Source: an uncultured bacterium
GTDB lineage: Bacteria; Omnitrophota; Omnitrophia; Omnitrophales; Aquincolibacteriaceae
Assembly: GCA_964385615.1 (NCBI GenBank)
Contig: CAYLPP010000002.1
Span: forward strand, 40,518 to 104,517
Reading direction: 5' to 3'
DNA: 64,000 nt
The notes under the pieces were generated by a model. It had not been told where the DNA came from, made no database searches, and saw only the letters and a list, made by a program, of their open reading frames with translations. The translations under genes were made by a program, and so were the position numbers. Within the stretch, counting starts at the first letter, position 1. Every line of letters starts with the position of its first letter. Shown one piece after another: positions 45,706-63,733 of the stretch.

Positions 45706-45965
45706 CGGCTTCCAGCGTGAAGCCAATTGTCTGAGGGGTGCTTGAAACCCTTGGTTTTGGCCTAAAAATCAGTCCTGTCTTTTTATAGCAATCTAGCGCA
45801 TTTCCGCATAACGGATAACGGCATTATTTTTTCTGTTTTGAAAAAGCGGGAATTTGCACCCGGTTTCTTGACTTGTCAGATAAGCCGTGTTACTTTTTTT
45901 CCGCCTTTCGGTTTTAAACCCCTTTTTCAGCAGTAAAAAAATATTCTTAAAAGGTGATACTTTTT

Positions 45966-51900: not shown

Positions 51901-54900
51901 CCGGCACCATTAAAGGTGACGCGCGTCTTCAGCTTTATCTGATCCCGCTCCTGATGACTCTTGATTCAAGGCATCCTGCTCCCGCGCCTGGAACCGTCAT
52001 CTATCTTTCGCTTACTAAAGTTAAGGAAGCAACTGCCAAGATGCGCTCCGAAGCGCGCGCGGAGTCAAAGGAATCTACTGAGAATTTTCCTCCTGCCTTT
52101 GACTCGTTTATTTGGCCGCAGCTCCCTCAGGAGGTCTCACCTTTTTGGAATCCCTCCGCGGCGGATGTCACTTTTGTAAATAATGGGGAATTCAAAGCTG
52201 TACTAGTCATTCCGGCGGCTGTGACCGTAAAATTAAAAACCGGCGGAAATACTGGGCCAACACTGGTGACGATTATTGAGGCGTCCTTGCGGAATGCCGG
52301 ATACGCTCCCGAAGATTACCAAATTAAGATAGAAAGGAAAGTGGATCACAAAGTAGAAATTTATTTTAAAAAACTGCTCGGTTCTTCCCGCTCAGAAGCG
52401 CGGATGGTGACGGCTAACGATGGTTGGCTGGATTCTGATGAAAAGACGCGCTTAATGAATGGGTTTTTTCAGAATTCAAAAATTGATCCTGCCTGGCATT
52501 TCATTACCGGCGTCGACAATATGCAGGTTGTGGCAACGCTTCACGAACCTGACCGCCCCGCGGGGCCTGTAGAAGCTGATCCTCGGTTTTTTTGGCCGCA
52601 TGTCTCTAGTGCTTTATGGACACTTCAATGGCTCGCCAATAATAAAAATGAATTTCTTAAAGACCGTGGAGACGCGGCTCTATTGACTTCGCTGGAGGAT
52701 TGGCTGACAGGTTGGAAGCAGATTCTTCTTCGCGTTATCAGCAATGAAGGGGAACGTGATAACGCGCCTCAGTTTCAGAAAGGAATTTTAGAAGCATACC
52801 TTTATCTCCTGGATACTCCTGAGGAAATTCGCCAGCGGGTGGATTGGTTCGGCGATGTGCTGGAAGTGACTAATGGCATTGTGTCGGATATTTTTGAAGG
52901 GTCCGTTTCAATGGGCGCTTTTGTCGCGCCGAATGCGGCCCTGAGCATGCCGGATGCGGCTTATTTTTACCGTTGGGTGGTACGCGGGAAAGTGGATCTC
53001 CAGGTTTCGGATAATTTAATTGCCGATGTCCCGGTTAACGTGGCCCGGTTGGCTGAAGCGACAAAAAAGCGGGCAGATCAGCTGAAGATTGCTCTTTTAA
53101 TTCGCCCCAGGCATTTCGCGGTGATTGAAGAATTGATCAAAGCGGGCATCCAGATTCCTGAAAGCGACAAAGCCCGGTATGATGCCATTTTAGCGATCGG
53201 AGATGAAGCTGTTCAAAAAGCCGAAAAGCTTAAATTTTTCGGCGGGCTTGAGAAGCAATCCAAAGAAAAAGGTTATTTGGTCTGGGGGAACATTGTACTG
53301 GCTGCTGACGGAGATATGATGCCTGCTTTTGCGGTTATGACTGAAGATCTTGATGCTGTGATCGCGGCCGGAGGCCCGAATGAAGTTCTCTTGGGCGCTA
53401 TGATTGCCAAGATTTTCAACGGTTCATTTAAAGGGCGCCTGGTGCCCGCGGATGCTTTGAAAGAAGAAAATAGAACCGCGAATATTACGACTGCGAAATG
53501 GAATTCGGCGGAACGTCAGAAACTTCTGGAGCATAACCTGTTTCCTCCTGATGTTACTGCGAATGAGAGGCTGGCGATTCTTAAAGAAGTGGCTGAAAAT
53601 CCTTACGCATTGAATAAAAATCTGACGGAAGCTCAGCGCCATGTCGATTATGTCTGGACTCAAGATGAAGCTGTTCCCGGTAATGACGGTGTTTTTTACG
53701 CGGCGACCGCTAAAATGTCCCCTGTCGGCAGTCCCTGGGTTAAAGCTCTTAAGGGAATCGAGTTTGATGCTGCTTCAGGAAATGTTTCAGTCTATCAAAT
53801 TCGAGCTGGTCTTTCAGGGGATGTCCGCGTTTTTAGAGTTATTTTTAAAACCGTTATTGCGGGCTTGCGCGATCAGATTCACGCGATTGAATTTGGGAGT
53901 GAATATGATGCCCGCGCTTCCCGGGTTTTTCAGGAGAGTGAATCTGAAAAACTCTATGATCTTTACTACGCGCTAGGCCGCGCGCTTTTCCGTTTCCGGC
54001 AGTATGAAGAAGCTTTTACGGCTTTTGAAGAAGCTCGGCGCAATGCCTCAGGGAATCCCGGCCGTTTGGCGAAAATCGAAGCTGTGATTGCCCATTACGC
54101 AGGATTGCAGACTTTGGTTCGGGAAAAGGATTCTCCTAATGAAAAAGCCCTGCCGTATTTTATCGAAGCCTCTAAGACGGATCATCAGGATTTAGAAGGT
54201 TCAGCGGGAAGCCGTGTGTTGGCCCAACTCCTTCTTAAATTCTTAGCTGAAAAAATCGAGAAAGAGTTAAAGAAAAACTTTGATTCTGAAGCCAAGGATA
54301 AAGCGCTTGGGTTTCTTCAGCAAAGGACCTTGATTGCCCCTGAAACCGCGGATGAGAACCGGGAAATTCGTGATCGCATTTCAAATATTACGGCAAAATC
54401 CGAGGTTCGATCAGTAGTTCAGGTTCAGACGGTTGAACTTCCCAAAGCGACTGAACCGCTGGAGATTTTCAGGAAACTTCCCGGGCTTGAAAATGCGGGG
54501 GTTTCTGAAGCTCAGGATTTCATCAGAAAGTATCATTTGCGCGCCACCGTTCAATATGAGGGCGGATCGGAGCTGGAGCTTGACGATCTTGATCGGTCTT
54601 TGGAGAAAAACTGGAAAATTGGAGGAGACCGGAAAGCTGCTGTCCGTTTGCGCTACTATCCGTTTCCCCAGGATAAGCAGACTCTGCGGAACGCCATTGC
54701 CTCGCTCGCGGGAGTGCTTGTTTACGCGCTTGAAAAGGACTATCCGGATCAGGAAATCGAAGCCTATAAAATCGCGCGTGTTCCCACGGATGAAGAGCCT
54801 GTTACGGTGCAGGAACTCAAGACATTTCTCGATAATTTGAGTGTTAACCTGATTTACAAACCCGAGAACACGGATTTAGATCAGTCTGAAGGGTGGTATT

Positions 54901-55925
54901 TTCAGATCGCCAGAAAAAAAGAAGATTTGCTTTACGGAGAAGTTGAAATCGGGCCTTTTCTGGGAACTCTTTCCGAAGATGGGTCTGCCCGTCTTGATCA
55001 GGGTGATTTGATGCTTGTTTATGAAATTCTGGATGCCCGGAATGTTCTGGATGAAAAAGAAGTAACAGAAGTCGGCCCTGAAATTCTCAGAATCTTCAAA
55101 AATGTTTCTCGTTCTGAGTCTAGGGTTCAAACTGAACCTCTCAAGGTAAATACGCGGTTCCTTACCCCTTCTCTCGAAGCTCAAGGCCGTACGGCTGAAG
55201 ATCTTTTCGCGGTCGCGGAAACTTCAACTCAGCGTGTTTTTGCCCAGCCGGATATTGACCTCGCGGGACCTGATTTTATCCGGGTTCAGTACGGGTGGGA
55301 CGGCGCGCAGACACTGCCCTTGAGCTCTGAAATTAAAACGGCAGGAAAAGTTTCTCAGGGAACTCCTAATACCGCTCAGTACGGAACCGCCCGCACGGTT
55401 GTGCTTCGCGGAGACACGGGAATTACAGTGGAAGACTTGCAGGCTATGGATCTTCAGCCTGGAAGCCGTGTGATTGTCGTGGATGAAATTGGCGGCCCGT
55501 CATTTCTCTGGAACCGTTACGCCAGCATGAAGCTTCCGAATAATGTACGGATTGAACGCCGGAGTGTTCTGGACGCTCTTGCTTATAATGAAATCAAAAA
55601 AGTTTTTGCTGAAAACCCGGCCAGCGTTCCGGTTCTGATTTTACCAGTCGGTACGCCCGATCCTTTGCTGGAGTCTTATCAGACCACGGCTGAACGTAAA
55701 GGTCTCGTGATCGCGTCTCCGCGCACCGCGGATGCCCGCCGTGCTATGGCTTGGGTGGTCCGAATGGAAGCTGATAAACTGCGCCAGCAGATTCCCGACG
55801 GCCTGACTTTCCGTTTCCAGTCTGACGCGCTTTCGCCGACCAGTGTTCAGCCCGGCGCTGAAAACCGGTTCGCTAAAGTCATGCTGGCCGCGGTCAGCAC
55901 CCAGCGTTTCCAGACCGCCGCGTAA
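45966..55925 (+). CDS. giant multidomain protein (3,319 aa): signal peptide, one internal TM, degenerate CofD/YvcK-like region, HAD-IIB phosphatase-like domain, TPR-like helices, otherwise uncharacterised
   Basis: Uninterrupted ORF of about 10 kb. ATG at 45966 with RBS AAAGGTGA 8 nt upstream. N-terminal signal LPLRAVSLTVALLFSVQTLLSAAPA. TM helix LIAGAAVLFLGLGITGGIY near nt 47990-48050. IVFFRRAQSG...IVLSATDDGLG near nt 48990-49110 resembles YvcK/CofD IVVIGGGTG...IVTVADDGGSSG. HAD motifs FDVDMTL (motif I), VSIISGNS (motif II), KNVALEN lysine and FGDEF (motif IV) lie near nt 50590-51450. Confidence 0.75.
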   Translation: MSGNSKSRFSLPLRAVSLTVALLFSVQTLLSAAPAVNPQQKVFQNFQISEELGRVEEAFLPETADSSKALIVHIRDAHAQPEAQRKIQAILNSLAVNKKIELVAAEAAFGPIDASVLKLLPDDKSNRAMAEDMADSGEVNGVELFALQNDHGIELRGVEDPELYRQSLQIFASLKKSKQSIKDVLSAYRTAVESLEARLLNPELQQYLIKKRSWEQNHDISLDYFRYLQTLARKKLNLDLSGAGFQFEWPQMVRLIKTAEMDSALDRERAVSETLQLAETFEKSAGLGRDYIAPGLRQLVSRDSNGDFRLWMLQHPAAGVQSIRHFYEALWRESKKQKISLLQYPEFLALGGSLILRDEIDAPALFSEAEKLERLIEKEIVRTEEEKKLFAISSDLALAGRLLSLELTRADYPMYLQRAGEFEPEVFRRRVQDFSGRKQKLPLLSGDLLEKASEFYRLSVLRDQTLIEKTLAAASGRPAALVAGGFHSEGLLEILKAKNIPYISITPKINNLADESLYEKAMIGSGNPAFAQLSVNTLGVQFLAQPARVYQKVSGSPSQTARLLRGLLVSGVRAMSSERRGSLEIYQTVTDAISSHPDIFGNNARVILREQVPVQLRAGKTAVDVLYLDIPSLGLKKELTLRNGRMFEVSPLVRFSDEQPAENVQARSETRISRKKLIAGAAVLFLGLGITGGIYEFNRRAEIARQEAIDASRIRYFKIDVPVRYTPNYDRPQTYSTAELQKIQKETIVKVSAVLGVNFDSGQKAHVKALADFYGLTHTGTVSPVMTDGDVEWWVKFSSNRRKISHWTQDQENEALVLQFFWRWQTREVMEHYGVVSKHQGDISAISEASDAARSLEPAVDALFIKATRNHQEIPAFIRDRKLRSEARVTRSPEELYVISEIVRLVSVLDSKGLRAKIHGRNLLEFGSHGEALVSFIQRYSVLKNLDDIRRVLAWRLDLESKSGLPLNGMDASKSAEKTRLIYESIFDPAAFLKHWAERKPNEPHPLNIVFFRRAQSGAEITNLLKSLPNVNVQIVLSATDDGLGWYEAARQFRATGVPGAGKALLDLAQDFHAKDFLAFRLSGKGKGDDEFTRDFTALVLKLHAPHDANLVLSDEMKIIFQKAMRMNIEKRRAMADYLETFLEEVQRRHRENADFTFRLKNIPLRSLVLLGASLKFKSDGELTDYWQKALDATAVLLDVKAGNRVIFPTRERQHLLAVREDGTVYFSETGVNRYGYEPPFLGYTTDSSFLGLWLVSETVDEAFIESIKSKLSAEGIELGDIPEAALPAEISRENRREVIATTKKVQPDQAARVAQLFSEMSTTAVSADSVNRVPVSLEADAAIRSADVVFYTTAAFETNVGAALIVPGVEDAIKQNRKAVKIALAEINGGNEKNLPLLALKNIERYLSHSPMGDLTHVQDHADFVLAGLLGSQDPNKAVPYLIETEQAAGGLVSAVALDARTDETHGFYSSPVLSEAMIALVGLKAADFRVSDSGGLMPDAKAVDSVSRENNQAGLFRKKKPVAALIREIKTNFPRIVKEGAFAFDVDMTLLPKNSDELTDYPELAYLLMRMLREGVTVSIISGNSFEEQGARILEAIKREMKDDFSALDNLVFYVSGGATRFNINKNGEVVPDAEYNRSHELNLDILKSGVNQALRELAAKNFGLNPDQLAAFISETQKKNGSHVTFPWKDGGVWEPEWLTPAEVKARKEKKQPLAFPWVEVRGDFITPGSIVASITVKPMQVFEYEGNKIDLRDEFQAHLRTLMFENQGSFVIRSGGTSSTDITTSTANKNVALENLIASRGLDAKWVFYFGDEFYQRQVAVSSGTVTQLGNDEAIALDPNLSAFRTLAVNSTDMKGASAKTIWIGRSPQATLEFLESVVINPAEISKRSEVRINFSRDDQAPQEFSAEVGIEGSSKAVYAEKDPESRAVYVWVKEKGTQGGVSQALLLPDLAGNDVSAVDAARTLADYLAGWVKAGTIKGDARLQLYLIPLLMTLDSRHPAPAPGTVIYLSLTKVKEATAKMRSEARAESKESTENFPPAFDSFIWPQLPQEVSPFWNPSAADVTFVNNGEFKAVLVIPAAVTVKLKTGGNTGPTLVTIIEASLRNAGYAPEDYQIKIERKVDHKVEIYFKKLLGSSRSEARMVTANDGWLDSDEKTRLMNGFFQNSKIDPAWHFITGVDNMQVVATLHEPDRPAGPVEADPRFFWPHVSSALWTLQWLANNKNEFLKDRGDAALLTSLEDWLTGWKQILLRVISNEGERDNAPQFQKGILEAYLYLLDTPEEIRQRVDWFGDVLEVTNGIVSDIFEGSVSMGAFVAPNAALSMPDAAYFYRWVVRGKVDLQVSDNLIADVPVNVARLAEATKKRADQLKIALLIRPRHFAVIEELIKAGIQIPESDKARYDAILAIGDEAVQKAEKLKFFGGLEKQSKEKGYLVWGNIVLAADGDMMPAFAVMTEDLDAVIAAGGPNEVLLGAMIAKIFNGSFKGRLVPADALKEENRTANITTAKWNSAERQKLLEHNLFPPDVTANERLAILKEVAENPYALNKNLTEAQRHVDYVWTQDEAVPGNDGVFYAATAKMSPVGSPWVKALKGIEFDAASGNVSVYQIRAGLSGDVRVFRVIFKTVIAGLRDQIHAIEFGSEYDARASRVFQESESEKLYDLYYALGRALFRFRQYEEAFTAFEEARRNASGNPGRLAKIEAVIAHYAGLQTLVREKDSPNEKALPYFIEASKTDHQDLEGSAGSRVLAQLLLKFLAEKIEKELKKNFDSEAKDKALGFLQQRTLIAPETADENREIRDRISNITAKSEVRSVVQVQTVELPKATEPLEIFRKLPGLENAGVSEAQDFIRKYHLRATVQYEGGSELELDDLDRSLEKNWKIGGDRKAAVRLRYYPFPQDKQTLRNAIASLAGVLVYALEKDYPDQEIEAYKIARVPTDEEPVTVQELKTFLDNLSVNLIYKPENTDLDQSEGWYFQIARKKEDLLYGEVEIGPFLGTLSEDGSARLDQGDLMLVYEILDARNVLDEKEVTEVGPEILRIFKNVSRSESRVQTEPLKVNTRFLTPSLEAQGRTAEDLFAVAETSTQRVFAQPDIDLAGPDFIRVQYGWDGAQTLPLSSEIKTAGKVSQGTPNTAQYGTARTVVLRGDTGITVEDLQAMDLQPGSRVIVVDEIGGPSFLWNRYASMKLPNNVRIERRSVLDALAYNEIKKVFAENPASVPVLILPVGTPDPLLESYQTTAERKGLVIASPRTADARRAMAWVVRMEADKLRQQIPDGLTFRFQSDALSPTSVQPGAENRFAKVMLAAVSTQRFQTAA

Positions 55926-55974
55926 TCCGCATTTTCTTGACAGGCTTTCGGCGGTTTGGCTACACTGCCATCCT

Positions 55975-56706
55975 ATGCCCGCGCGACAGATTCTTGTTTT
56001 GGATAAAAAGGAAAGCCAGTGGCCCGCGTTTCTAAGCGAATGCTTTGAAGAAACGCCGTCAAAGGTTCATATTTTTGACAACCCTTCGCAGGCCGCTTTA
56101 TGGACCACTCAGAATAAAGCCGATTTTTGTTTTGTCCGGCCTGAACTTCTTTCCATGAGTCTTGCCCAGAAGCTCAAGTTCCTTCGTGAAAGCGTTAAAT
56201 CCTTCCGCTTGTTCGGTCTTGATTCCATGAATAAATCTCTGCCATTCGATGACTTTGTCGATGGGTACACCTCCACGGTCAGCGCGTTTCAGCGCAAACT
56301 TTCCCAGCATTTGGAATTTTCTGAAAAGATCCAAGTTTTGATTGTGGATGATGAGCAGGATATCGGGCACATGATTCAGGACTTTTTGCTCGACCGCGCC
56401 CACCCGTCGTTTCTGGCGGATTACACTGATGACGGGCATAAGGCGCTGGAGTGGCTTGCAAAGAAAAGGTATGACGTGGTTGTGCTGGACGTGAAAATGC
56501 CGATCCTGGACGGACGGGAAATTTACCGGGGAATCGTCGAGAAAAAGATTAAAACCGCGGTGATCGTTTTTTTTGACGCCATTTCCGGCGATGAAATTTC
56601 CGACATTCACAAGATTGGCCGTCCGGCCATTGTGGATAAAGGTTCGAGTCAAAGCAGTATGCCTGAAATGCTGGCGCTGATTAAAAAAATGGCCTACTTC
56701 GGATGA
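55975..56706 (+). CDS. response regulator with a degenerate N-terminal pseudo-receiver and a canonical C-terminal receiver domain, no output domain
   Basis: The second half has IQVLIVDDEQDIG, phospho-acceptor context VVVLDVKMPILDG and downstream T/K positions. The first ~110 aa are REC-like in length and hydrophobic pattern but lack the acidic pocket. First ATG is at 55975; the supplied ORF start at 55843 overlaps the giant gene. Confidence 0.55.
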   Translation: MPARQILVLDKKESQWPAFLSECFEETPSKVHIFDNPSQAALWTTQNKADFCFVRPELLSMSLAQKLKFLRESVKSFRLFGLDSMNKSLPFDDFVDGYTSTVSAFQRKLSQHLEFSEKIQVLIVDDEQDIGHMIQDFLLDRAHPSFLADYTDDGHKALEWLAKKRYDVVVLDVKMPILDGREIYRGIVEKKIKTAVIVFFDAISGDEISDIHKIGRPAIVDKGSSQSSMPEMLALIKKMAYFG

Positions 56707-57791
56707 ACCGCCGGATCGGAGTTTTCTTTTTTCTTGTTTTGTTTTCCGGATGCGCGTTCGCGGTGCGCTGGCCGGCCTTCGCGGTTAAAAGCAATAAATC
56801 AGAAAAAGTTTTCCGCGGTGTTTTTCACGTCCACTCCTTTTATTCTCATGATTCCAAAGCGGACTTTTCTGACTTGATTGAAACGGCCCGCAAGGCCAAC
56901 TTAGACTTTGTTGTTGTTACGGACCACAACAACACGCTGGCCAAGGAAGCGTATGACCGGAGCAGTCTTCCGCGCGATCCGCTTCTGGTTTTCGGGAATG
57001 AAGTTTCTTCCAGCGAAGGGCATATCATCATGCTGGGGGTTTATGAAGAACCGCCTCCGGACAGGGAATCCGGCCAGGAGGTCATTGACTGGGCGCATGA
57101 AAAAGGCGGTTATGCCATTATTCCGCACCCCTTCAGTCCGAAAAGCGACTGGGACAATTGGAATGTTCAGAACTTTGACGGCATTGAGATCTACAATTTC
57201 TTTCACTCTATCTATGACAGTTCGCTGATTGAATTCGGGCTGGAGTTCGCTTTTCTTCCTCCGCATTATTTTTTAAAGGCTCTCGACCGGCCGATGGCGA
57301 AGACCCTGCCTCTTTGGGATGAACGGCTCGAAAAAGGCCGGCTGGCCGGACTTGGCGGTACGGATGCTCACACTCATTTTAAATTTGGAAATTTTTCTCC
57401 CGAAAATCTTCTGCTGTCCTATCAGGCCGTCAACGTTTTCGCGCTGGCGGATTCTTTGGAACCGGAAAAAATTGTTGAAGCCTTGGGTAAAGGGCGGAGC
57501 TTTACGGCTTTTGAGACTGAAGGGGATGCTGGGCAATTTTCTTTCACCGCGGAAGCGGGCGGGAACAAATACCGGATGGGGGACACGATTCCCGTCGGCA
57601 GTGAAATCACTTTCAGAATACAGACGCCTTTGCCGGCTCGTATCCTTTTGATTCATCACGGAAATGTTATCCTTGAACATGAGGGTGTTGAAGCGGTTTT
57701 TAAAACCGGGGAGGCCGGCGCTTACCGTGTGGAAGTTCAGAAAAACTCGAAACCTTGGATTATGGCGAACCCTATTTATGCGGAGGGCTAA
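56703..57791 (+). CDS. PHP-domain metal-dependent phosphoesterase, predicted lipoprotein
   Basis: PHP motif FHVHSFYSHDSKADFSDLIETARKANLDFVVVTDHN plus later His/Asp clusters (HIIMLG, IIPHPF, GGTDAHTH). N-terminal signal with a lipobox-like LFSGC. Overlaps the upstream stop as ATGA. Confidence 0.7.
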   Translation: MNRRIGVFFFLVLFSGCAFAVRWPAFAVKSNKSEKVFRGVFHVHSFYSHDSKADFSDLIETARKANLDFVVVTDHNNTLAKEAYDRSSLPRDPLLVFGNEVSSSEGHIIMLGVYEEPPPDRESGQEVIDWAHEKGGYAIIPHPFSPKSDWDNWNVQNFDGIEIYNFFHSIYDSSLIEFGLEFAFLPPHYFLKALDRPMAKTLPLWDERLEKGRLAGLGGTDAHTHFKFGNFSPENLLLSYQAVNVFALADSLEPEKIVEALGKGRSFTAFETEGDAGQFSFTAEAGGNKYRMGDTIPVGSEITFRIQTPLPARILLIHHGNVILEHEGVEAVFKTGEAGAYRVEVQKNSKPWIMANPIYAEG

Positions 57792-58824
57792 AGCCCTTCT
57801 TATTTTTTTACCCGTCTTTTTTTTCTCCGGGTGCACAGCCTGGCAGCCTTTTTCTCAAAAAGAACCCGCTTCGAAACCTTCTTTTTACGAGCACTACTAC
57901 GATTATCCCGCGCCGGATCTGAACGCTAAAATTATCCGTGAACAAGTAACAAAGCATTACCTTCTGCGGACGGTGGAGTTCCCGCTGAATCTTCCCAGCG
58001 GGCTCGAAGTGAAAAATCTCCCCGAATTCCGCCGGCGGAATGAAGAGCTTTTCAAGACCGATCAAAAAACCGCGAATGATGCCGCGCTTCGCTACACCGT
58101 GCGGATTGATTATTACCTTCCCAGAAACCTCAAGCCCGGCGAGAAACGGCCGGCGGTTTTGATTTCTCCCATTTTGGGCGGGAATATGGTGGTGGATCAT
58201 TTCGCGCGGTATTACGCGGGCCGAGGGTTTGCCGCGGCGATTGTTTACCGTAAACGCCTTTTCTGGGAAGAAGGCAATGATGACATCCGGCAATTTGAAG
58301 ATTATATGCGCGTGTCTGTCATCCGTCTTCGCGAAGCGCTGGACTGGCTCGAAGTTCAGCCGGAGGTAGACGCTTCACGAATCGGAAGTTTTGGTGTCAG
58401 CTACGGGGCGATTTTACACACCATCCTGGCGGCAGTTGAACCCCGCATTCGTTATCACGTGCTGGCCATGCCCGCGGGACCGATCTCTGAAGTGATCGCG
58501 CATTGCCCCGATAAGGCCGTGACCAAACTCATGACTTACGCGCGGGAGCATTACGGCTGGTCCGCTGAGAAAGTGGAAAAGGATTTGAGTGGAGTCATCA
58601 AAACCGATCCGCTTCTGCTGGCTCCGCAGGTACCTCGCGAAAAAGTGGAAGTCTATGCGGCTCTCTTTGACCGGGTGGTGGGAGCGGGGCGGTCCTTTCG
58701 AGTTTGGCGAGCGCTGGGCAAACCTAAATTGAGGGTCATGCCTTTCGGTCATTACGGCGGGATTTCCGTGTTTCCTCTGCTTCAAACCCAGTCTTATCTG
58801 GCGCTTAAAAAGCATCTGAAGTAA
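57778..58824 (+). CDS. alpha/beta-hydrolase (GXSXG esterase/dienelactone-hydrolase-like), predicted lipoprotein
   Basis: Signal peptide MRRAKALLIFLPVFFFSGC with a lipobox-like FSGC. Nucleophile elbow GVSYG. A late Asp and the PFGHYGG histidine fit an alpha/beta hydrolase triad. The start overlaps the PHP gene end by 14 nt. Confidence 0.6.
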   Translation: MRRAKALLIFLPVFFFSGCTAWQPFSQKEPASKPSFYEHYYDYPAPDLNAKIIREQVTKHYLLRTVEFPLNLPSGLEVKNLPEFRRRNEELFKTDQKTANDAALRYTVRIDYYLPRNLKPGEKRPAVLISPILGGNMVVDHFARYYAGRGFAAAIVYRKRLFWEEGNDDIRQFEDYMRVSVIRLREALDWLEVQPEVDASRIGSFGVSYGAILHTILAAVEPRIRYHVLAMPAGPISEVIAHCPDKAVTKLMTYAREHYGWSAEKVEKDLSGVIKTDPLLLAPQVPREKVEVYAALFDRVVGAGRSFRVWRALGKPKLRVMPFGHYGGISVFPLLQTQSYLALKKHLK

Positions 58825-61230
58825 TTATTTTTTTAAGTTTTCGAAATCAAAATGATGATACTCACTGTCTGCCGCTCTCGAACCGTCGTCGGCGTTGGCA
58901 ATCCAGAATTCCGGAAAAGCAAAAACCGCGCTTTGAATATTTGATCCCGGAGCCAGTTCTTTGGCGAATTCCATGACGGTTTTCGGGGTGATTTCTCCGT
59001 AGTATTTCTCGGCAAGCCGGCCGTGCTTCTGATAACGGATTTCAAACGCGCTTCCGGTGGGCGGTTCCAGGCCGGGCTGGTCAGGTTTGCCTCCGGAAGC
59101 TATTTGAAGATTCCGGATTTCAGGATCGAGCGCGGGATCTCCCCGGAACACCGCGCAGGGCACTCGAAGCGCGTAGCCCGCTTTTTCATTCGGGTCATTG
59201 TCGCCGAAGACCGCGAAATGAGAATGCGTGGTTTCAAAAACGAAAGCTTTTCTTTCTTCCGCGCTTGCCGCGACGTAATTATAACCGCGTGTGCGTGCCG
59301 CGGTTTCAAAGATTGTTTTTGCCGATTCAAGATTTGAAGCGTTCTCCAACGCCTCCTTAATTAAAAACGGCATAGGTGTTCCTTCCAGGGATTCATCTTT
59401 CGAAACCGCGCCGATCTGCCCTAGAGAAATTCCCGCGTCATTCATGCCGGAAAGAACTCCGGAGAAACCCGCGTATCCAAGATTGACGTAAGCTTGCCTG
59501 CCTGGCTTTTCAATGAATTTAACTGCGGCATCGCGGTGAATGCCGATTCCGCGGTTCCAGTCCAGGTTACGCAGAGCAATCATCCGGCCGTCTTTTGTCG
59601 CCTTGCCCCAGTAAGCGCCGTTAGTGCACCAGGAAGGATAAACTTCGGGAAGCGCGTGAAGGCGTTCCATCGTTTTCAGCGGAATACCGGCACCGTCGGC
59701 CAGGCCTTTGATTTGCAAAAAGTCCTCATAAGAAATAAACGGCTCCATTTTTTTCCAGGCGCGGTCCATGGAAAAGTGGATCAGCCATTTTCCGGCCAGG
59801 GGAACGGGCAATTGCTTTTTCAGGTAAGTCTCAATGCCTTCGGAAGCTGAATGGATTTCTTTTTTAAGAAGCCGGCCTTCTTCATAGCCAATGTGATAGG
59901 CATCGCCCCGGAGTTTGATGACGGGCAGACCCTGGTCATAGCTTAAAGAGCCTTCTGGCCGGAGTTGTTTTTTTTCCGTTTCGGTCAGAAGTTGTTCGGT
60001 TTGTTCGATGGCGGTTTCCTGCGTCCACCGGCTCATGCCGGGCCCGTAAAAACTGACCCGGGCCTCGTATTGACCGCGGTCGCGGTAGTAACGGGGCGAA
60101 ACAACATAGGCGATGTAATCGTTGGCGTATCCGGCAATCAGAGGAGTCAACCCCCGGGCCCGAAGGTGATTTTCAATTTCATGGCCGGGCCCTGAAGTCA
60201 GTTCTCCAGGAAAAGCGAAGATGAGAAAATTACCCATTCGAAGGGATTGAAAATAACTTTCACGCGCGAAGACACGCCCGCCCAGCCAGGAAGGTGTCCG
60301 CATTTTTCCGAGCCGGGCTTTAACCGGCGGGAGTTTTTTCTTTTCGAGAACACTTTGCCAGAGTCCGTCGACAGACGCCGGATGAAAAGAAGCTTTTTCG
60401 AATCGCTCGAGAAGCTGACGGCCGTAAGCCAGCATTTTTTCGTGACGGTCCTCAAGAGAAGGCGCGCGCGGTCTGAGATCACCGGCCGCGCCGTTGATCA
60501 GCAGCGCGGTTGATCCGGGAAACTGTTTTTCAACGCCGGAACATAAAACTCCGGGAAAATCGGCTGAGAATTTCAGATTTCCCGCCGAAAGCAGGGTGGG
60601 GTGAGCCGCTATGAAGATTAAATGCCCCGTCACTTCGCCTTGTTTTGTTTTGAAGCGGAGAATCCGCATTTTCCGGGATTCTTTGAGCGCGGGGTCCATT
60701 CTGTTTTCAACCAAGTCATCAATTTGAATTTCCGCGCTTTCTGTTTCCGCCGGACTCAAGTTCCGCAGGCTTTCAACCGCGGAGTCCGCGATTTTCTGAG
60801 ACAGCTGTTTAAAAACGTCCGCCCGTTTTTTACCGAGAATGAATTTTTCCCAGAACCGGCTCCCGTAAGCGCCGGCGCCTGAATGGCTGTGTGTCGCGGC
60901 CAGCATCAGCTGACGGTCTTTGAGAGGAAATTTTTTTCTTATCTGAAGAAGAACTTCTTCGCGCAATTCCGCGTCCACAAGAACTTGGTCAGCTGAAATA
61001 AAGACGAATGTTTCTTCGCCGTTCCGCAGGGCCAGCGCGCGGGCGTAAAGGGGGTCGAGAATTCCTTCGGAAGAATGGCCGTGACGTTTGCCGTATCCGC
61101 CCAACGGTGTTCCTATGGGCGGAGTGATTTCCTGCTTTCCGGATCCGGCCTCGATATTTTGCGCTCGAACGGGCTGAACGAATCCTGAAACTGCGCAAAT
61201 CCAAAGGAGAAAAAAGAAGGTTCGTTTCAT
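58825..61230 (-). CDS. secreted fusion protein: neutral/alkaline ceramidase-like N-terminal domain plus C-terminal Ntn-hydrolase (peptidase C45 / acyl-CoA:6-APA acyltransferase-like) domain
   Basis: Signal peptide MKRTFFFLLWICAVSGFVQPVRA with RBS GAGGGAAG. ITPPIGTPLGGYGKRHGHSSEGILDPLYARALAL and AATHSHSGAG match the neutral ceramidase N-terminal core. The C-terminal SWCTNGAYWGKATKDGRMIALRNLDW...GMNDAGISLG resembles the C45/AAT Ntn-hydrolase nucleophile-Cys region. Start taken at the internal ATG at 61230 rather than 61254. Confidence 0.6.
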   Translation of the reverse strand: MKRTFFFLLWICAVSGFVQPVRAQNIEAGSGKQEITPPIGTPLGGYGKRHGHSSEGILDPLYARALALRNGEETFVFISADQVLVDAELREEVLLQIRKKFPLKDRQLMLAATHSHSGAGAYGSRFWEKFILGKKRADVFKQLSQKIADSAVESLRNLSPAETESAEIQIDDLVENRMDPALKESRKMRILRFKTKQGEVTGHLIFIAAHPTLLSAGNLKFSADFPGVLCSGVEKQFPGSTALLINGAAGDLRPRAPSLEDRHEKMLAYGRQLLERFEKASFHPASVDGLWQSVLEKKKLPPVKARLGKMRTPSWLGGRVFARESYFQSLRMGNFLIFAFPGELTSGPGHEIENHLRARGLTPLIAGYANDYIAYVVSPRYYRDRGQYEARVSFYGPGMSRWTQETAIEQTEQLLTETEKKQLRPEGSLSYDQGLPVIKLRGDAYHIGYEEGRLLKKEIHSASEGIETYLKKQLPVPLAGKWLIHFSMDRAWKKMEPFISYEDFLQIKGLADGAGIPLKTMERLHALPEVYPSWCTNGAYWGKATKDGRMIALRNLDWNRGIGIHRDAAVKFIEKPGRQAYVNLGYAGFSGVLSGMNDAGISLGQIGAVSKDESLEGTPMPFLIKEALENASNLESAKTIFETAARTRGYNYVAASAEERKAFVFETTHSHFAVFGDNDPNEKAGYALRVPCAVFRGDPALDPEIRNLQIASGGKPDQPGLEPPTGSAFEIRYQKHGRLAEKYYGEITPKTVMEFAKELAPGSNIQSAVFAFPEFWIANADDGSRAADSEYHHFDFENLKK

Positions 61231-61323
61231 GGCTTCCCTCTGAAAGTATGCCATAATTTAAACAAACGCTTAAGGTTCTTCCGGGTCGCACCGAAACACC
61301 CCATAGAGAAAAGGCGGGAGATT

Positions 61324-61686
61324 ATGGCTAAAAAAATTCTTCTGGTTGATGACGAAATCGAGATTCGCGGTTTCATGCAGGACTATTTTGAAGACCGCGA
61401 ATTCCAAGTCTCTATCGCTTCTGACGGCGCCGAGGGCCTGGCCCTTTTTGAGAAAGATCAGTTTGACCTGATTGTCTGCGATATGCTGATGCCGAAAATG
61501 ATCGGGATTGAATTTCTCAGGCGGGTGAAAGAGAAAAAGCCCGATCAGCGGGTCATTATGATGACCGGTGTTAAGGAAGAATCCATGATGGAAAAGGCCA
61601 AGGCTTTGGGCTGTCTCCATTATTTGACCAAGCCGGTGAAGCTTTCCGATATCGAAGCCCGCGTTAACGAGTGTTTCGCATCTTAG
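61324..61686 (+). CDS. single-domain response regulator (CheY-like receiver)
   Basis: KILLVDDE, phospho-acceptor LIVCDMLMPKM, downstream T (MMTG) and K (LTKP) positions. 120 aa. Confidence 0.8.
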   Translation: MAKKILLVDDEIEIRGFMQDYFEDREFQVSIASDGAEGLALFEKDQFDLIVCDMLMPKMIGIEFLRRVKEKKPDQRVIMMTGVKEESMMEKAKALGCLHYLTKPVKLSDIEARVNECFAS

Positions 61687-61798: not shown

Positions 61799-63733
61799 AT
61801 GATGCCCATGTTCCCCAGGAAACTTTCAAAACGGGCTATTTCTCTGTTTTGTATTTTCAACCTTTGCATATCCTTTTTACTGCCCGTTCCGGCCTTCGCT
61901 GAAAAAGCCCCGCTCACCGATGACGAACTTCTCGACCTGATTCAGCGCAAAAGCCTGGATTATTTTATCAATGAGAGAAGCGCTGTTACGGGGCTGGTGC
62001 GCGACCGGGCCAATAATTCCAGGGAAGGAATCAATAATTCGCCCGCGAGTATCGCCGCGACCGGTTTCGCTCTGGCGGTTTACGCTTCCGCGGTTTCCAG
62101 AAACTGGCTTGATTACGGAACTGCCAAAGAAATGACCCGCAAAACCCTGCAGTTTTTTTTGGAGAAAGCCCCGCAGGAACATGGATTTTTCTATCACTTT
62201 ATGGATATGGAGACGGGACAAAGGTTCCGGGACTCCGAAGTGTCGCCGATTGATACCGCGCTTCTTTTGGCTGGAGCGATGTTTGCCGCGGAATATTATG
62301 AAGAGCCGGATGTCCGTGAGCTGGTGAATAAGATTTATGACCGCGTTGACTGGGAGTGGATGCTTCACGGCGGGAAAACCTTCGCCATGGCCTGGAGCCC
62401 GGAGAGCGGTTTTCAGAAAAACCGGTGGGACACTTACAATGAATCGATGGTTATGTATCTTCAGGCGATTGGTTCTTCCGCCCATCCAATTCCCGCGGAG
62501 AGCTGGAAAGCCATCAAACGGCCCGCGGGAAGTTACAAGAATTACCGTTTGATTTTTCAACCGCCGCTCTTCACGCATCAGTATTCTCACATCTTCGTTG
62601 ATTTCCGCAATAAACATGACGGTTTTGCAGACTATTTCAGGAATTCGACCGATGCTTCTCTGGCTAATCGCGCTTTCTGCATGGAACACGCGGACCGCTT
62701 TCCAGGGTATGGGCCGGATAGCTGGGGTTTGACGGCCTCTGACGGGCCTACCGGATATGCCGCCTACGGCGCGGCTCCGGGGCCGGCGCGCCACGATGGT
62801 ACGATTGCTCCGACCGGCTGCGGAAGCTCGATTGTTTTCACGCCTAAAGAATCACTGGCCTGCTTGAGGAATTTTTATGAAAACGAGGACGGTCTTTGGG
62901 GCCGTTACGGGTTCGCGGACGCTTTTAATAAAGGAAAGAAGTGGGTGGCTCCGGATGTGATAGGGATTGATCAGGGAGCCTTATTTCTAATGATTGAGAA
63001 TTACCGAAGCGCTTTGATCTGGAAGATGATGTCCAAGAGTCTTCCGATCAACCGTGCGATGGAGGCTGTTGGTTTTAAGGAGGGAACTATGGAATTGCCC
63101 TGGCCAGAGCCTCCTTCTGAAAAAGCGGTTTATATTCAGCAGGGAATCGAAGTGAACGCGCTTTTAAGCGACTGGCCTAACGGGAAGCCCCTGGAAATGG
63201 ATGAATCCTTTATTGAGACCGGGAGTTTTAAGGAAGGCAGGGCCCCCAAGGTTCAGATTCGTTTCGGCTGGAACCGGGCGGCGCTCTTCTTCTATGCCAA
63301 AGTGGCGGATCCGGACTTGGTTGCCAGAAAAACCGGAAGAAATATATGGATGGATGATATGATTGAGCTTTATATTGATCCCCAAGGTGACGGGCTGGAC
63401 TGGGGCCAGCGCGGTGATTTTCAGATTGGATTCCGGCCCGATCCGGAGACCGGTGAAGTGCTGACCTGGTCCTGGTTTGGAGACGGCGGAGACCCGCAGA
63501 AGGAATCGGCCGCTTTGGCGCGCAGTTTTTCCGATCAGTCCGGATATTTAGTTGAAGGAGCGGTCAGCTGGGAATATTTGGGAATTAAACCGGAACCTGG
63601 GATGGTGGTCCGGCTTTCGGCTGCCGTGCATGATATCGACTCTGACCGCAGTGACGGCAAGCTCCAATGGTTTTTTAGAAATGAAGAAAAGAGCGGGCAT
63701 TACGTTCTTGGGAAACTTGTGCTGGAAGCATGA
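61799..63733 (+). CDS. secreted six-hairpin glycoside-hydrolase-like protein (glucoamylase/DUF3131-like catalytic domain) with C-terminal CBM9-like carbohydrate-binding domain
   Basis: Signal peptide. The central region (GFALAVYA...PIDTALLLAGAMFAAEYY...DTYNESMVMYLQAIGS) resembles the putative glucoamylase/GH144-type alpha/alpha-toroid families. The C-terminal WMDDMIELYIDPQGDG is typical of CBM9/DOMON-like modules. Confidence 0.45.
   Translation: MMPMFPRKLSKRAISLFCIFNLCISFLLPVPAFAEKAPLTDDELLDLIQRKSLDYFINERSAVTGLVRDRANNSREGINNSPASIAATGFALAVYASAVSRNWLDYGTAKEMTRKTLQFFLEKAPQEHGFFYHFMDMETGQRFRDSEVSPIDTALLLAGAMFAAEYYEEPDVRELVNKIYDRVDWEWMLHGGKTFAMAWSPESGFQKNRWDTYNESMVMYLQAIGSSAHPIPAESWKAIKRPAGSYKNYRLIFQPPLFTHQYSHIFVDFRNKHDGFADYFRNSTDASLANRAFCMEHADRFPGYGPDSWGLTASDGPTGYAAYGAAPGPARHDGTIAPTGCGSSIVFTPKESLACLRNFYENEDGLWGRYGFADAFNKGKKWVAPDVIGIDQGALFLMIENYRSALIWKMMSKSLPINRAMEAVGFKEGTMELPWPEPPSEKAVYIQQGIEVNALLSDWPNGKPLEMDESFIETGSFKEGRAPKVQIRFGWNRAALFFYAKVADPDLVARKTGRNIWMDDMIELYIDPQGDGLDWGQRGDFQIGFRPDPETGEVLTWSWFGDGGDPQKESAALARSFSDQSGYLVEGAVSWEYLGIKPEPGMVVRLSAAVHDIDSDRSDGKLQWFFRNEEKSGHYVLGKLVLEA

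What the first reader, a model, noticed from the sequence alone, without database searches (positions are those of the whole stretch)
58825..61230. Neutral-ceramidase-like domain fused to an Ntn (C45/AAT-like) hydrolase in one secreted 800-aa protein
The N-terminal 400 aa carry the neutral/alkaline ceramidase signature. This includes the ITPPxGxPLGGYGxR opening and the HSHSG metal-site region. The C-terminal 350 aa carry an Ntn-hydrolase nucleophile context (SW-C-TNGAY...RNLDW...GMNDAGISLG) like peptidase C45 / isopenicillin-N acyltransferase. Both halves cleave amide bonds of acylated substrates. A covalent fusion of the two is not an architecture I recognise. It would make a two-headed amidase, or a ceramidase with a self-processing regulatory module.
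Basis: partly seen in the sequence, partly recalled or inferred. Interest (0 to 1): 0.65.

Follow-up and report, generated by a model that had tools for sequence, protein, structure and literature searches.

The report
Two-headed exported amidase, ceramidase-like plus C45
One exported ~800-residue protein of an Omnitrophota bacterium joins a zinc "neutral-ceramidase-like" amidase to a self-cleaving cysteine (C45) amidase. The pairing also occurs elsewhere as two adjacent genes and as a three-enzyme fusion with an esterase, so it marks an uncharacterised multi-hydrolase system whose substrate is unknown.

Summary
A single ORF (58825-61254, minus strand; likely start at 61230) encodes a signal peptide, a short neutral-ceramidase-type domain and a complete C45/IAT-type Ntn proenzyme. 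All seven ceramidase active-site positions are kept. The Cys543/Arg562/Asp565 set is kept too. There is no ceramidase C-terminal beta-domain and no frameshift. AlphaFold gives pLDDT 95.5 and pTM 0.93. Foldseek matches neutral ceramidase (E 5e-30), then IAT (1e-16), then acid ceramidase and NAAA (~1e-11).

The architecture is not unique. About 47 close full-length homologues exist, and 28 species-level genomes carry the locus, mostly Omnitrophota. At least 27 further divergent 50%-identity clusters carry the same fusion. About ten genomes encode the halves as adjacent genes, and there the C45 gene has its own lipoprotein signal. At least 12 clusters are triple fusions with an alpha/beta-hydrolase. 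In the window, a lipoprotein alpha/beta-hydrolase lies tail-to-tail with the gene, preceded by a CehA/McbA-type PHP metallohydrolase.

Best reading: an envelope-located amide and ester deacylating enzyme set. The substrate is unknown. I found no paper describing it. I rate it a new variant of known kinds, of moderate interest.

The parts
58825..61254 (-). Whole ORF of 809 codons plus the stop at 58825-58827. The probable CDS is 58825-61230, starting at Met9 (801 aa).
   Evidence: P0001 (801 aa, 100% identical) starts at Met9. A GAGGGA box precedes the ATG at 61228-61230.
61162..61230 (-). Predicted Sec signal peptide, residues 9-31: MKRTFFFLLWICAVSGFVQPVRA, with cleavage before Gln32.
   Evidence: Read from the sequence; no predictor was run. 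Orthologues carry either a similar signal or a lipobox, for example LLLSGC in P0047.
59980..61158 (-). Short neutral-ceramidase-like Zn-amidase domain, residues about 33-425. The active-site equivalents are H122, H124, R185, H218, E351, Y383 and Y396.
   Evidence: Pfam PF04734, E 2.8e-27. Profile against PDB: 2zws 3.7e-34 and 4wgk 2e-29, with the residue alignment shown. Foldseek 2zws, E 4.7e-30. The residues are invariant or near-invariant. Codons were checked.
59923..59979 (-). Inter-domain linker, residues about 426-444 (TEKKQLRPEGSLSYDQGLP). In split-gene relatives this position holds the stop codon, the intergenic gap and the lipoprotein signal peptide of the C45 gene.
   Evidence: In every split locus the tblastn matches break at 801-aa-query residues about 397/425, which is ORF 405/433. 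Junction sequences are shown.
59629..59922 (-). C45 pro-region, or alpha-subunit: residues 445-542, mostly helical, ending at Trp542.
   Evidence: NCBIfam C45_proenzyme matches from residue 449 at profile position 1. Helices at model residues 444-530. Foldseek aligns with the whole IAT precursor 2x1c, TMt 0.76.
59626..59628 (-). Codon TGC for Cys543, the predicted Ntn nucleophile. The predicted autoproteolytic site is Trp542|Cys543.
   Evidence: Invariant in 22 of 22 close homologues and kept in 30 of 32 members of the extended set. It aligns with the Cys143Ala position of acid ceramidase 5u81. It sits at the start of strand 534-542 in model numbering.
58828..59628 (-). C45 beta-subunit, residues 543-809. 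It contains R562-N-L-D565-W566, which matches the RNxD motif of acid ceramidase and NAAA.
   Evidence: The residue roles in acid ceramidase come from PMC5915598.
57778..58824 (+). Conserved partner 1: a lipoprotein alpha/beta-hydrolase of 348 aa counted from MRRAKALL. It has the lipobox FFFSGC and the triad Ser208/Asp298/His325. It lies tail-to-tail with the fusion gene with no gap.
   Evidence: Weak Pfam S15/BAAT_C/DLH hits. It is immediately downstream and convergent in 25 of the 39 fetched loci, some of which duplicate the same contig; in 5 more (L012, L028, L029, L031, L039) it lies 0.5-4.6 kb away. The triad and Cys19 are at least 95% conserved in 21 sequences. A homologous type of domain is fused in cis in the triple fusions.
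56703..57791 (+). Conserved partner 2, found only in the fused clade: a PHP-fold CehA/McbA-family metallohydrolase of 362 aa with lipobox LFSGC. It overlaps the alpha/beta-hydrolase start by 14 nt.
   Evidence: NCBIfam NF038032, 121 bits against a cut-off of 80. Pfam PHP. Present in 16 of the 39 fetched loci (12 after removing duplicate contigs), all in the fused clade. The metal-ligand His/Asp/Glu residues and Cys17 are conserved.
55843..56706 (+). Response-regulator receiver protein upstream of the PHP gene. The true start is probably internal, since homologues are about 244 aa. It is often syntenic.
   Evidence: Pfam Response_reg. Synteny.
61324..61686 (+). Single-domain response regulator, divergent from the fusion gene. 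Syntenic in a subset of loci.

Best explanation
The gene encodes an exported, bifunctional amidohydrolase of 86.5 kDa once the signal peptide is removed.

Two catalytic heads.
- Head 1 is a truncated neutral-ceramidase-fold metallo-amidase. It keeps the whole Zn and catalytic constellation but lacks the C-terminal beta-domain of canonical ceramidases.
- Head 2 is a complete C45/IAT-type Ntn proenzyme.

Inferred maturation. The protein most likely cleaves itself between Trp542 and Cys543. The new N-terminal cysteine would then become the nucleophile. The 57-kDa fragment (ceramidase-like domain plus C45 alpha-subunit) and the 29-kDa beta-subunit would stay together as one particle.

Partners. 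The two heads work in the cell envelope together with a membrane-anchored serine alpha/beta-hydrolase. In this clade a CehA/McbA-type PHP metallo-esterase is also present. Together they would remove amide-linked and ester-linked acyl groups from one multi-acylated substrate or substrate family.

Substrate. An N-acylated lipid is my first guess: ceramide-like, ornithine-lipid or lipid-A-like, or an N-acyl amine.

Shown here: domain identities, conserved catalytic residues, the export signals as read from the sequence, the fused, split and triple-fused gene forms, and synteny.
Inferred: autoproteolysis, activity of both heads, cooperation on one substrate, and the nature of that substrate.
For: Domains and fold: (pLDDT 95.5, pTM 0.93).

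Catalytic residues.
- H122, H124, R185, H218, Y383, Y396 and E397 are invariant in the close family. E351 is replaced by Asp only in the P0047 clade.
- All of these, plus C543 and D565, persist in divergent and triple fusions.
- In the profile alignment C543/R562/D565 lie opposite the C143(A)...R-N-M-D stretch of acid ceramidase. That stretch holds Cys143, Arg159 and Asp162, whose roles are described in PMC5915598.

Functional linkage of the components.
- About ten species-level genomes have the two halves as adjacent same-strand genes that break exactly at the linker.
- The two half-trees are congruent, and fused and split forms are interleaved.
- At least 12 clusters fuse ceramidase-like, C45 and alpha/beta-hydrolase domains in one chain.
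- Direct ceramidase-like plus alpha/beta-hydrolase fusions also exist: P0192 and P0284.
- The alpha/beta-hydrolase gene is the conserved convergent neighbour.

Envelope location.
- The fusion has a signal peptide.
- Lipobox cysteines are conserved in both partners and in the split C45 genes.

Lipid hints.
- The only characterised relatives of head 1 that I know of are ceramidases.
- After IAT, the structural neighbours of head 2 are acid ceramidase and NAAA.
- One relative fuses the ceramidase-like domain to the lipid-binding SCP2 domain: P0148.
Against: - No activity data exist for any member.
- NCBIfam's neutral-ceramidase equivalog model scores only 40 bits against a cut-off of 1200. About 60 residues of the canonical catalytic domain and the whole C-terminal domain are missing. 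Ceramide itself is therefore not implied.
- The characterised C45 enzymes I know of (IAT, Tan) act on small soluble amides, not lipids.
- The esterase partner looks like CE7 acetyl-esterases or acylaminoacyl peptidases, not lipases. A glucoamylase-like/CBM9 gene is often nearby. Both would fit an acylated glycan or peptide substrate.
- The residue before the Cys is Trp, Leu or Phe in this family, not the Gly of IAT. Self-cleavage is therefore unproven.
- The fusion gene is convergent with its partners, so it is not co-transcribed with them.
- The triple-fusion model shows the esterase on a disordered linker. That indicates tethering, not a fixed three-site machine.
- I had no model coordinates, so the geometry between the two active sites is unknown.
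Confidence: 0.55

Rival explanations
1. It is a genuine ceramidase system. Head 1 hydrolyses ceramide or a bacterial sphingolipid. Head 2 acts like acid ceramidase or NAAA on the same or a related N-acyl lipid. The purpose would be turnover of the cell's own sphingolipids, or scavenging of host or prey sphingolipids.
For: All seven neutral-ceramidase active-site positions are kept. Head 2 resembles acid ceramidase and NAAA in fold (E about 1e-11, TMt 0.65-0.70) and shares the RNxD motif. Pseudomonas secretes a ceramidase to exploit host sphingolipids (PMC5150637, abstract listed).
Against: The score is far below the ceramidase equivalog threshold. The C-terminal domain is absent and the catalytic domain is shortened. 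The 64-kb window holds no sphingolipid synthesis genes. The best structural match for head 2 is IAT, not acid ceramidase. The role of the esterase and CehA-like partners would be left unexplained.
Confidence: 0.15
2. The module deacylates an acylated envelope glycan or peptide rather than a lipid. Candidates are N- or O-acetylated or acylated peptidoglycan, exopolysaccharide or lipopeptide. The purpose would be remodelling of the cell's own wall or attack on prey cell walls, in line with the proposed predatory lifestyle of Omnitrophota.
For: The alpha/beta-hydrolase resembles CE7 acetyl esterases, cephalosporin-C deacetylase and acylaminoacyl peptidase. A glucoamylase-like (PF10091) + CBM9 gene is a frequent neighbour. 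In the window, L001 and L003 the module follows a giant ORF. Giant Omnitrophota genes have been linked to degradation of prey cell walls (bioRxiv 10.1101/2023.11.21.568195). The known C45 substrates are soluble amides (from my own knowledge).
Against: The outer flanks, including the giant ORF and the glucoamylase-like gene, are not conserved across the family: L005-L008 and the split clade lack them. No ceramidase-fold enzyme is known to act on glycans.
Confidence: 0.15
3. It is a ceramidase-like enzyme whose C45 half is only a self-processing or regulatory module with no substrate of its own.
For: Ntn proenzymes are activated by autoproteolysis. In acid ceramidase, cleavage uncovers the active site (PMC5915598). 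The high pTM suggests tight packing of the two halves.
Against: The C45 half exists as an independent lipoprotein gene in about ten genomes and as stand-alone homologues elsewhere. Its Cys, Asp and flanking residues are conserved at 25-30% identity. Its nearest families are all true enzymes.
Confidence: 0.07
4. It is a quorum-quenching or N-acyl-signal degrading set. The two amidase heads would act as acylases on N-acyl-homoserine lactones or similar signals. The alpha/beta-hydrolase and the PHP metallohydrolase would act as lactonases.
For: The best NCBIfam hit of the alpha/beta-hydrolase is the UilS quorum-quenching lactonase family, though at only 23.5 bits against a cut-off of 400. From my own knowledge, not tested here: Cys-Ntn penicillin-V-acylase relatives from Gram-negative bacteria hydrolyse long-chain AHLs.
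Against: All hits pointing this way are far below family thresholds. There is no LuxI/LuxR context in the window.
Confidence: 0.05

Closest known systems
Neutral/alkaline non-lysosomal ceramidase (Pseudomonas aeruginosa PaCD, PDB 2ZWS/2ZXC; human ASAH2, PDB 4WGK)
   Same: The fold of the catalytic domain matches (Foldseek E 4.7e-30 and 1.2e-28). The profile match is E 3.7e-34. In that alignment H122, H124, R185, H218, E351, Y383 and Y396 lie opposite PaCD His97, His99, Arg160, His204, Glu411, Tyr448 and Tyr460. The roles of those PaCD residues are recalled from Inoue et al. 2009; the paper could not be opened here. Like the Pseudomonas enzyme, the protein is exported.
   Different: Identity is only about 19%. 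The C-terminal beta-sandwich domain (PF17048) is absent and a C45 domain stands in its place. The stretch matching PaCD residues 282-394 is about 60 residues shorter. The NCBIfam neutral-ceramidase equivalog scores 40 bits against a cut-off of 1200. The substrate is unknown.
Acyl-CoA:isopenicillin N acyltransferase (IAT) / MEROPS peptidase family C45 (PDB 2X1C/2X1D/2X1E)
   Same: NCBIfam C45_proenzyme and Pfam AAT both score above their cut-offs. This is the best structural match for the C-terminal half, covering both the alpha and beta parts of the proenzyme (E 1e-16, TMt 0.75-0.76). A pro-region of about 100 residues precedes the nucleophile Cys.
   Different: Identity is about 14%. The residue before the Cys is Trp, Leu or Phe rather than Gly. 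The predicted location is the periplasm or envelope, where no acyl-CoA is available, so hydrolysis or lipid-donor transacylation is more likely than CoA-dependent transfer. The domain is fused behind another amidase.
Acid ceramidase (ASAH1) and N-acylethanolamine acid amidase (NAAA)
   Same: The Cys-Ntn alpha-beta-beta-alpha fold with an alpha-subunit matches (Foldseek E 6e-12 and 3e-11, TMt 0.65-0.70). Cys543 aligns with the Cys143 position, and R562-N-L-D565 aligns with R-N-M-D (roles in PMC5915598).
   Different: The sequence-profile match is only marginal (E 0.02-0.7). No Pfam hit to a family other than AAT was returned for this half. No saposin-like partner is present, and the environment is not lysosomal.
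CehA/McbA carbamate hydrolases (PHP-fold metallo-esterases): relevant to the neighbouring gene, not to the fusion protein
   Same: The neighbour at 56703-57791 passes NCBIfam NF038032 with 121 bits against a cut-off of 80. It is predicted to be exported, and McbA is periplasmic (PMC8292978).
   Different: It is much shorter than CehA/McbA, whose catalytic His residues lie at positions 313-504. It is lipoprotein-anchored. No xenobiotic catabolic context is present.

Membership tests
Neutral/alkaline ceramidase (Pfam PF04734 + PF17048; NCBIfam NF041649) | Catalytic-domain homology (PF04734 above the gathering score) | tested here: met
   96 bits against a cut-off of 32.1. Foldseek 2zws, E 4.7e-30.
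Neutral/alkaline ceramidase (Pfam PF04734 + PF17048; NCBIfam NF041649) | Zn ligands and catalytic residues: PaCD His97, His204, Glu411, Tyr448, plus His99, Arg160 and Tyr460 | tested here: met
   The equivalents H122, H218, E351, Y383, H124, R185 and Y396 come from the alignment. They are conserved. The residue roles are recalled from the literature and were not re-read here (searches failed).
Neutral/alkaline ceramidase (Pfam PF04734 + PF17048; NCBIfam NF041649) | C-terminal beta-sandwich domain (PF17048) | tested here: not met
   No PF17048 hit at E up to 1. The C-terminal half has the IAT fold.
Neutral/alkaline ceramidase (Pfam PF04734 + PF17048; NCBIfam NF041649) | Full-length equivalog score (NF041649 cut-off 1200 bits) | tested here: not met
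   40.4 bits.
Neutral/alkaline ceramidase (Pfam PF04734 + PF17048; NCBIfam NF041649) | Hydrolysis of the N-acyl bond of ceramide | not testable with these tools
   Needs an enzyme assay.
Peptidase C45 / IAT-type Ntn proenzyme (NCBIfam NF040521, Pfam PF03417) | Family profile above the curated cut-off | tested here: met
   NF040521: 125.3 bits against 85. PF03417: 34.2 bits against 23.2.
Peptidase C45 / IAT-type Ntn proenzyme (NCBIfam NF040521, Pfam PF03417) | Alpha-beta-beta-alpha Ntn fold, with the nucleophile Cys at the start of a core strand after a pro-region of about 100 residues | tested here: met
   Foldseek 2x1c, TMt 0.76. Cys543 is model residue 535, at the start of strand 534-542 after helices 444-530. 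It is invariant.
Peptidase C45 / IAT-type Ntn proenzyme (NCBIfam NF040521, Pfam PF03417) | Gly-Cys scissile bond as in IAT (Gly102-Cys103; recalled) | tested here: not met
   The residue before the Cys is Trp, Leu or Phe in the close family and variable (G, M, I, R, H) in divergent members. Acid ceramidase and NAAA also lack Gly here, so this does not exclude self-cleavage.
Peptidase C45 / IAT-type Ntn proenzyme (NCBIfam NF040521, Pfam PF03417) | Autoproteolytic maturation | not testable with these tools
   Needs SDS-PAGE or mass spectrometry of wild-type and C543A protein. Expected fragments are 57.3 and 29.2 kDa.
Acid ceramidase / NAAA (choloylglycine-hydrolase-type Cys-Ntn) | Sequence-family membership | tested here: not met
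   Only marginal profile hits to 5u81 and 6dxy (E 0.02-0.03). Pfam returns AAT only.
Acid ceramidase / NAAA (choloylglycine-hydrolase-type Cys-Ntn) | Cys...Arg-x-x-Asp catalytic arrangement | tested here: met
   C543, R562 and D565 align to Cys143(Ala), Arg159 and Asp162 (roles). In the triple fusions the Arg is replaced by Ser or Thr.

The most novel reading that the evidence does not exclude
The ceramidase-like head, the C45 head and the tethered or neighbouring esterase form a previously unrecognised envelope 'deacylation machine'. It would strip both amide- and ester-linked acyl chains from one complex lipid, such as lipid A, an ornithine or amino lipid, or a sphingolipid. That lipid could belong to the cell itself or to the prey or host of these putatively predatory or epibiotic Omnitrophota. 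It would be the first enzyme to combine the neutral-ceramidase fold and the acid-ceramidase-type Ntn fold in one particle. The repeated independent fusion of the parts would reflect substrate channelling between the sites.
Probability: 0.2. Interest if true: 0.7.

Novelty: new variant of a known kind. Interest (0 to 1): 0.5.

Why it matters
The two catalytic folds joined here are the ones that animals use separately as neutral ceramidase and as acid ceramidase/NAAA.

The components occur in four arrangements: separate genes, a two-domain fusion, a three-domain fusion, and a direct ceramidase-like plus esterase fusion. That is strong comparative-genomic evidence that they act on a common substrate or pathway, and no such pathway has been described.

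- It gives a first functional handle on the large, uncharacterised group of short (~450 aa) bacterial 'Ceramidase_alk' proteins. The family profile drew 28,336 hits in the representative library.
- It does the same for bacterial C45 proteins.
- It points to a concrete, testable envelope enzyme set in Omnitrophota, a phylum with almost no cultured members and a proposed host-dependent or predatory lifestyle.

If the substrate proves to be a membrane lipid, the system would be a new route of bacterial lipid turnover or of attack on other cells. If not, it would widen the known chemistry of the ceramidase fold.

Tried and rejected
Hypotheses rejected.
- Frameshift or assembly artefact. About 47 orthologues are intact single ORFs. 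Real frameshifted copies do exist (L010/L021, L028) and look different.
- The C-terminal half as the ceramidase beta-domain.
- The neighbouring 'PHP' gene as a phosphatase, and with it my early idea of a 'phosphate + ester + amide', lipid-A-type logic. I weakened this once the gene passed the CehA/McbA esterase-type family cut-off.
- A rigid three-enzyme complex. The triple-fusion model has a disordered Pro/Lys linker before the esterase and pTM 0.72.

Attempts that gave nothing.
- The exact database twin P0001 is not on record in the contig index.
- The afdb50 fold library was unavailable, so I could not check for UniProt/AFDB entries with the same architecture.
- The primary structure papers for neutral ceramidase could not be opened, and full-text searches for the residue numbers found nothing. 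The residue roles are therefore recalled.
- The sigma-70 promoter scan found no site near the gene; terminator-like hits were not above the shuffled expectation.
- The contexts of a triple fusion (L040) and of a divergent double fusion (L041) showed no further conserved partners.
- Annotation of the whole window found no sphingolipid, lipid A or ornithine-lipid genes that could point to a substrate.

Limitations.
- Literature searches for this fusion, or for ceramidase or C45 genes in Omnitrophota, found nothing.
- Model coordinates are not exposed by the tools, so distances and tunnels between the two active sites were not measured.


Full report
1. THE OBSERVATION

The region holds one uninterrupted ORF at 58825..61254 on the minus strand, 809 codons. 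This ATG is preceded by a GAGGGA ribosome-binding-like box. It is also the start of the 801-aa database protein P0001, which is 100% identical. I take 58825-61230 as the CDS.

From Met9 the N-terminus reads MKRTFFFLLWICAVSGFVQPVRA|QN. This has the features of a Sec signal peptide; I read that from the sequence and ran no predictor.

2. DOMAIN IDENTITIES

- Pfam finds Ceramidase_alk (PF04734, E 2.8e-27, two stretches) and AAT (PF03417, E 2.8e-8, above its gathering score).
- NCBIfam places residues 449-684 in C45_proenzyme (NF040521) at 125 bits against a cut-off of 85.
- The neutral-ceramidase equivalog model scores only 40 bits against 1200.
- No hit to the ceramidase C-terminal domain PF17048 was returned.

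A profile built from 22 family members hits the two solved neutral ceramidases: 2zws at 3.7e-34 and 4wgk at 2e-29. For the C-terminal half it gives marginal hits to acid ceramidase, NAAA and IAT, at E 0.02-0.1.

An AlphaFold2 model built on an 89-sequence alignment is very confident: mean pLDDT 95.5 and pTM 0.93. That pTM implies a defined packing of the two halves. Foldseek against the PDB returns:

| Half | Match | E-value | TM-score (target) |
|---|---|---|---|
| N-terminal | neutral ceramidase 2zws | 4.7e-30 | 0.56 |
| C-terminal | IAT precursor and mature forms | ~1e-16 | 0.75-0.76 |
| C-terminal | acid ceramidase | 6e-12 | 0.65 |
| C-terminal | NAAA | 3e-11 | 0.70 |
| C-terminal | bile-salt hydrolases, penicillin V acylases | ~1e-7 | 0.45-0.53 |

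The IAT match covers both the alpha and the beta parts of the proenzyme.

3. CATALYTIC RESIDUES

In the alignment to Pseudomonas ceramidase, seven residues of this protein lie opposite seven PaCD residues:

| This protein | H122 | H124 | R185 | H218 | E351 | Y383 | Y396 |
|---|---|---|---|---|---|---|---|
| PaCD | His97 | His99 | Arg160 | His204 | Glu411 | Tyr448 | Tyr460 |

From memory of Inoue et al. 2009, these PaCD residues are the Zn ligands and catalytic residues. I could not open that paper here.

All seven are invariant or near-invariant in the close family. The only change is E351 to Asp in one clade. They persist in divergent and triple-fusion relatives.

In the C-terminal half, Cys543 is invariant. 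It lies at the start of a core beta-strand, after about 100 mostly helical residues. It aligns with the mutated Cys143 of acid ceramidase 5u81. R562-N-L-D565 aligns with that enzyme's R-N-M-D. The roles of Cys143, Arg159 and Asp162 are described in PMC5915598.

The residue before the Cys is Trp, Leu or Phe, not the Gly of IAT. Self-cleavage is therefore plausible but not shown. If it occurs, the products would be 57.3 and 29.2 kDa.

4. HOW WIDESPREAD IT IS

- About 47 near-full-length proteins at 38-64% identity carry both Pfam domains. The named ones come from Candidatus Omnitrophica/Omnitrophota MAGs.
- A scan of one genome per species found 28 loci. Most are labelled Omnitrophota; a few MAGs are labelled Planctomycetia or Verrucomicrobiota.
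- An exhaustive profile search of 1.84 billion representative proteins gave 28,336 hits. Most are single-domain relatives.
- Among the best 150 hits are at least 27 further 50%-identity clusters of 750-1130 aa that match both domains in one stretch. Of the ten I sampled, eight passed both Pfam gathering scores; two (P0176, P0220) had only sub-threshold AAT hits.

The architecture is therefore recurrent. Databases auto-name it 'neutral/alkaline non-lysosomal ceramidase N-terminal domain-containing protein'. I found no paper that describes it.

5. FUSED, SPLIT AND TRIPLE-FUSED FORMS

In L027, L029-L034, L038 and L039, the two halves are separate, adjacent, same-strand ORFs. L009 is also split, with an IS110 element inserted between them. 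The break is always at the linker.

In these split forms the C45 ORF begins with its own lipoprotein signal, for example LLAGC, FAGC or ISSGC. In L039 the stop codon is followed directly, in the same frame, by the GTG start.

Rough NJ trees of the two halves, made without support values, are congruent. Fused and split forms are interleaved. This suggests long co-inheritance and more than one fusion or fission event.

At least 12 clusters of 1108-1149 aa add a third, C-terminal alpha/beta-hydrolase domain. Two further architectures join the ceramidase-like domain directly to an alpha/beta-hydrolase: P0192 and P0284.

The model of a triple fusion has pLDDT 89 and pTM 0.72. The esterase sits behind a disordered Pro/Lys-rich linker. 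Its nearest folds are CE7 acetyl esterases and acylaminoacyl peptidases.

6. NEIGHBOURHOOD

In the window the fusion gene lies tail-to-tail, with no gap, against an alpha/beta-hydrolase gene at 57778-58824.
- It carries the lipobox FFFSGC and the triad Ser208/Asp298/His325.
- The triad and the lipobox Cys are at least 95% conserved in 21 homologues.
- The same neighbour lies immediately downstream and convergent in most fetched loci whose contig reaches that far, split forms included. In five loci it lies a little further away.
- Its homology to the esterase domain of a triple fusion is weak but detectable: E 9e-6, including the GxSxG elbow.

Upstream of it, in the fused clade only, lies a 362-aa lipoprotein with a PHP domain. 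It passes the NCBIfam CehA/McbA metallohydrolase cut-off at 121 bits against 80. Characterised members of that family are periplasmic carbamate esterases (PMC8292978).

The outer flanks vary between genomes. They include response regulators, a glucoamylase-like/CBM9 gene, RND efflux genes and a giant ORF. The rest of the window is ordinary chromosome.

7. INTERPRETATION

Shown here:
- two intact catalytic centres of different mechanism in one exported chain;
- repeated genetic coupling to each other and to a serine esterase;
- envelope targeting signals on every component.

Inferred:
- Ntn self-cleavage at Trp542|Cys543;
- activity of both heads;
- cooperation in removing amide- and ester-linked acyl groups from a shared substrate.

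The substrate is open. Three observations point to a lipid: the only characterised relatives of head 1 that I know of are ceramidases, head 2 resembles acid ceramidase and NAAA, and one relative carries an SCP2 fusion. Three point to an acylated glycan, peptide or small amide: the esterase is CE7-like, a CBM9 glycosidase is a frequent neighbour, and the known C45 substrates are soluble.

I rank the general 'multi-head envelope deacylase' reading at about 0.55. The rivals are listed separately.

8. NOVELTY AND SCORE

Both domains belong to known families. The combination is undescribed in the literature I could search. The same is true of the fusion/fission series and of the conserved esterase partnership.

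It is not a neutral ceramidase by the equivalog and domain-architecture tests. It is a C45 family member by profile and fold. I classify it as a new variant of a known kind, with interest 0.5. It gives a solid, testable lead on two large uncharacterised bacterial protein groups, but there is no evidence yet for a new mechanism or for a particular substrate.

Noticed in passing
window 45954-55925 (+): A 3323-aa ORF lies directly upstream of the module. Its only Pfam hits are an FBPase_glpX-like stretch and a CofD-like stretch. Homologous loci carry ORFs of more than 4707 aa and 10303 aa at the same relative position. This resembles the giant Omnitrophota proteins discussed in bioRxiv 10.1101/2023.11.21.568195.
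   Followed up: partly
window 56703-57791 (+): The 'PHP domain' lipoprotein passes the NCBIfam CehA/McbA metallohydrolase cut-off (121 bits against 80). That is a carbamate-esterase-type family, not a classical PHP phosphatase. It is much shorter than the characterised enzymes.
   Followed up: partly
window 61799-63733 (+) and 61324-61686 (+): A glucoamylase-like (PF10091) + CBM9 protein and a single-domain response regulator sit on the other side of the fusion gene. They are syntenic in L001, L003, L010, L016, L018, L025 and L036, but not across the whole family.
   Followed up: partly
L010 5818-8212 (same contig as L021); L028 5740-8442: Here the orthologue is broken over three reading frames: 161 + 241 + 447 codons in L010. 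This is either a pseudogene or MAG frameshift errors. It contrasts with the clean two-gene split of other genomes.
   Followed up: no
L039 around 6990-7000: The ceramidase-like ORF ends ...YPKKKK*. It is followed immediately, in the same frame, by the GTG start of the lipoprotein C45 gene (VKVLRLTAYCLLVAAVFAGC...). Loss of a single stop codon would fuse the two genes.
   Followed up: partly
L009 5355-6608: An IS110-family transposase gene is inserted between the split ceramidase-like and C45 genes.
   Followed up: no
window 58824/58825; L003 10405-10439: The convergent stop codons of the fusion gene and the alpha/beta-hydrolase gene abut with no spacer in the window. In L003 the two genes overlap by 35 nt. 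No terminator stands out between them.
   Followed up: no
proteins P0148, P0292-P0298, P0073, P0290: In other proteins the short ceramidase-like domain is fused to SCP2 (lipid-binding), to cytochrome c/HEAT 'membrane-bound dehydrogenase-like' regions, to Big_5 and to Endonuclease_1. It appears to be a promiscuous module in PVC-type multidomain proteins.
   Followed up: no
proteins P0143, P0147, P0186, P0193, P0205, P0212, P0227: These long proteins (1010-1689 aa) match the family profile in three or four separate stretches, and the best stretch is the C45 part. They may carry other C45-containing multidomain architectures.
   Followed up: no
window 25183-26292 (-): A myo-inositol-1-phosphate synthase gene lies about 33 kb from the module. 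It is the only gene in the window with a possible link to lipid head groups, and I found nothing that connects it to the module.
   Followed up: no
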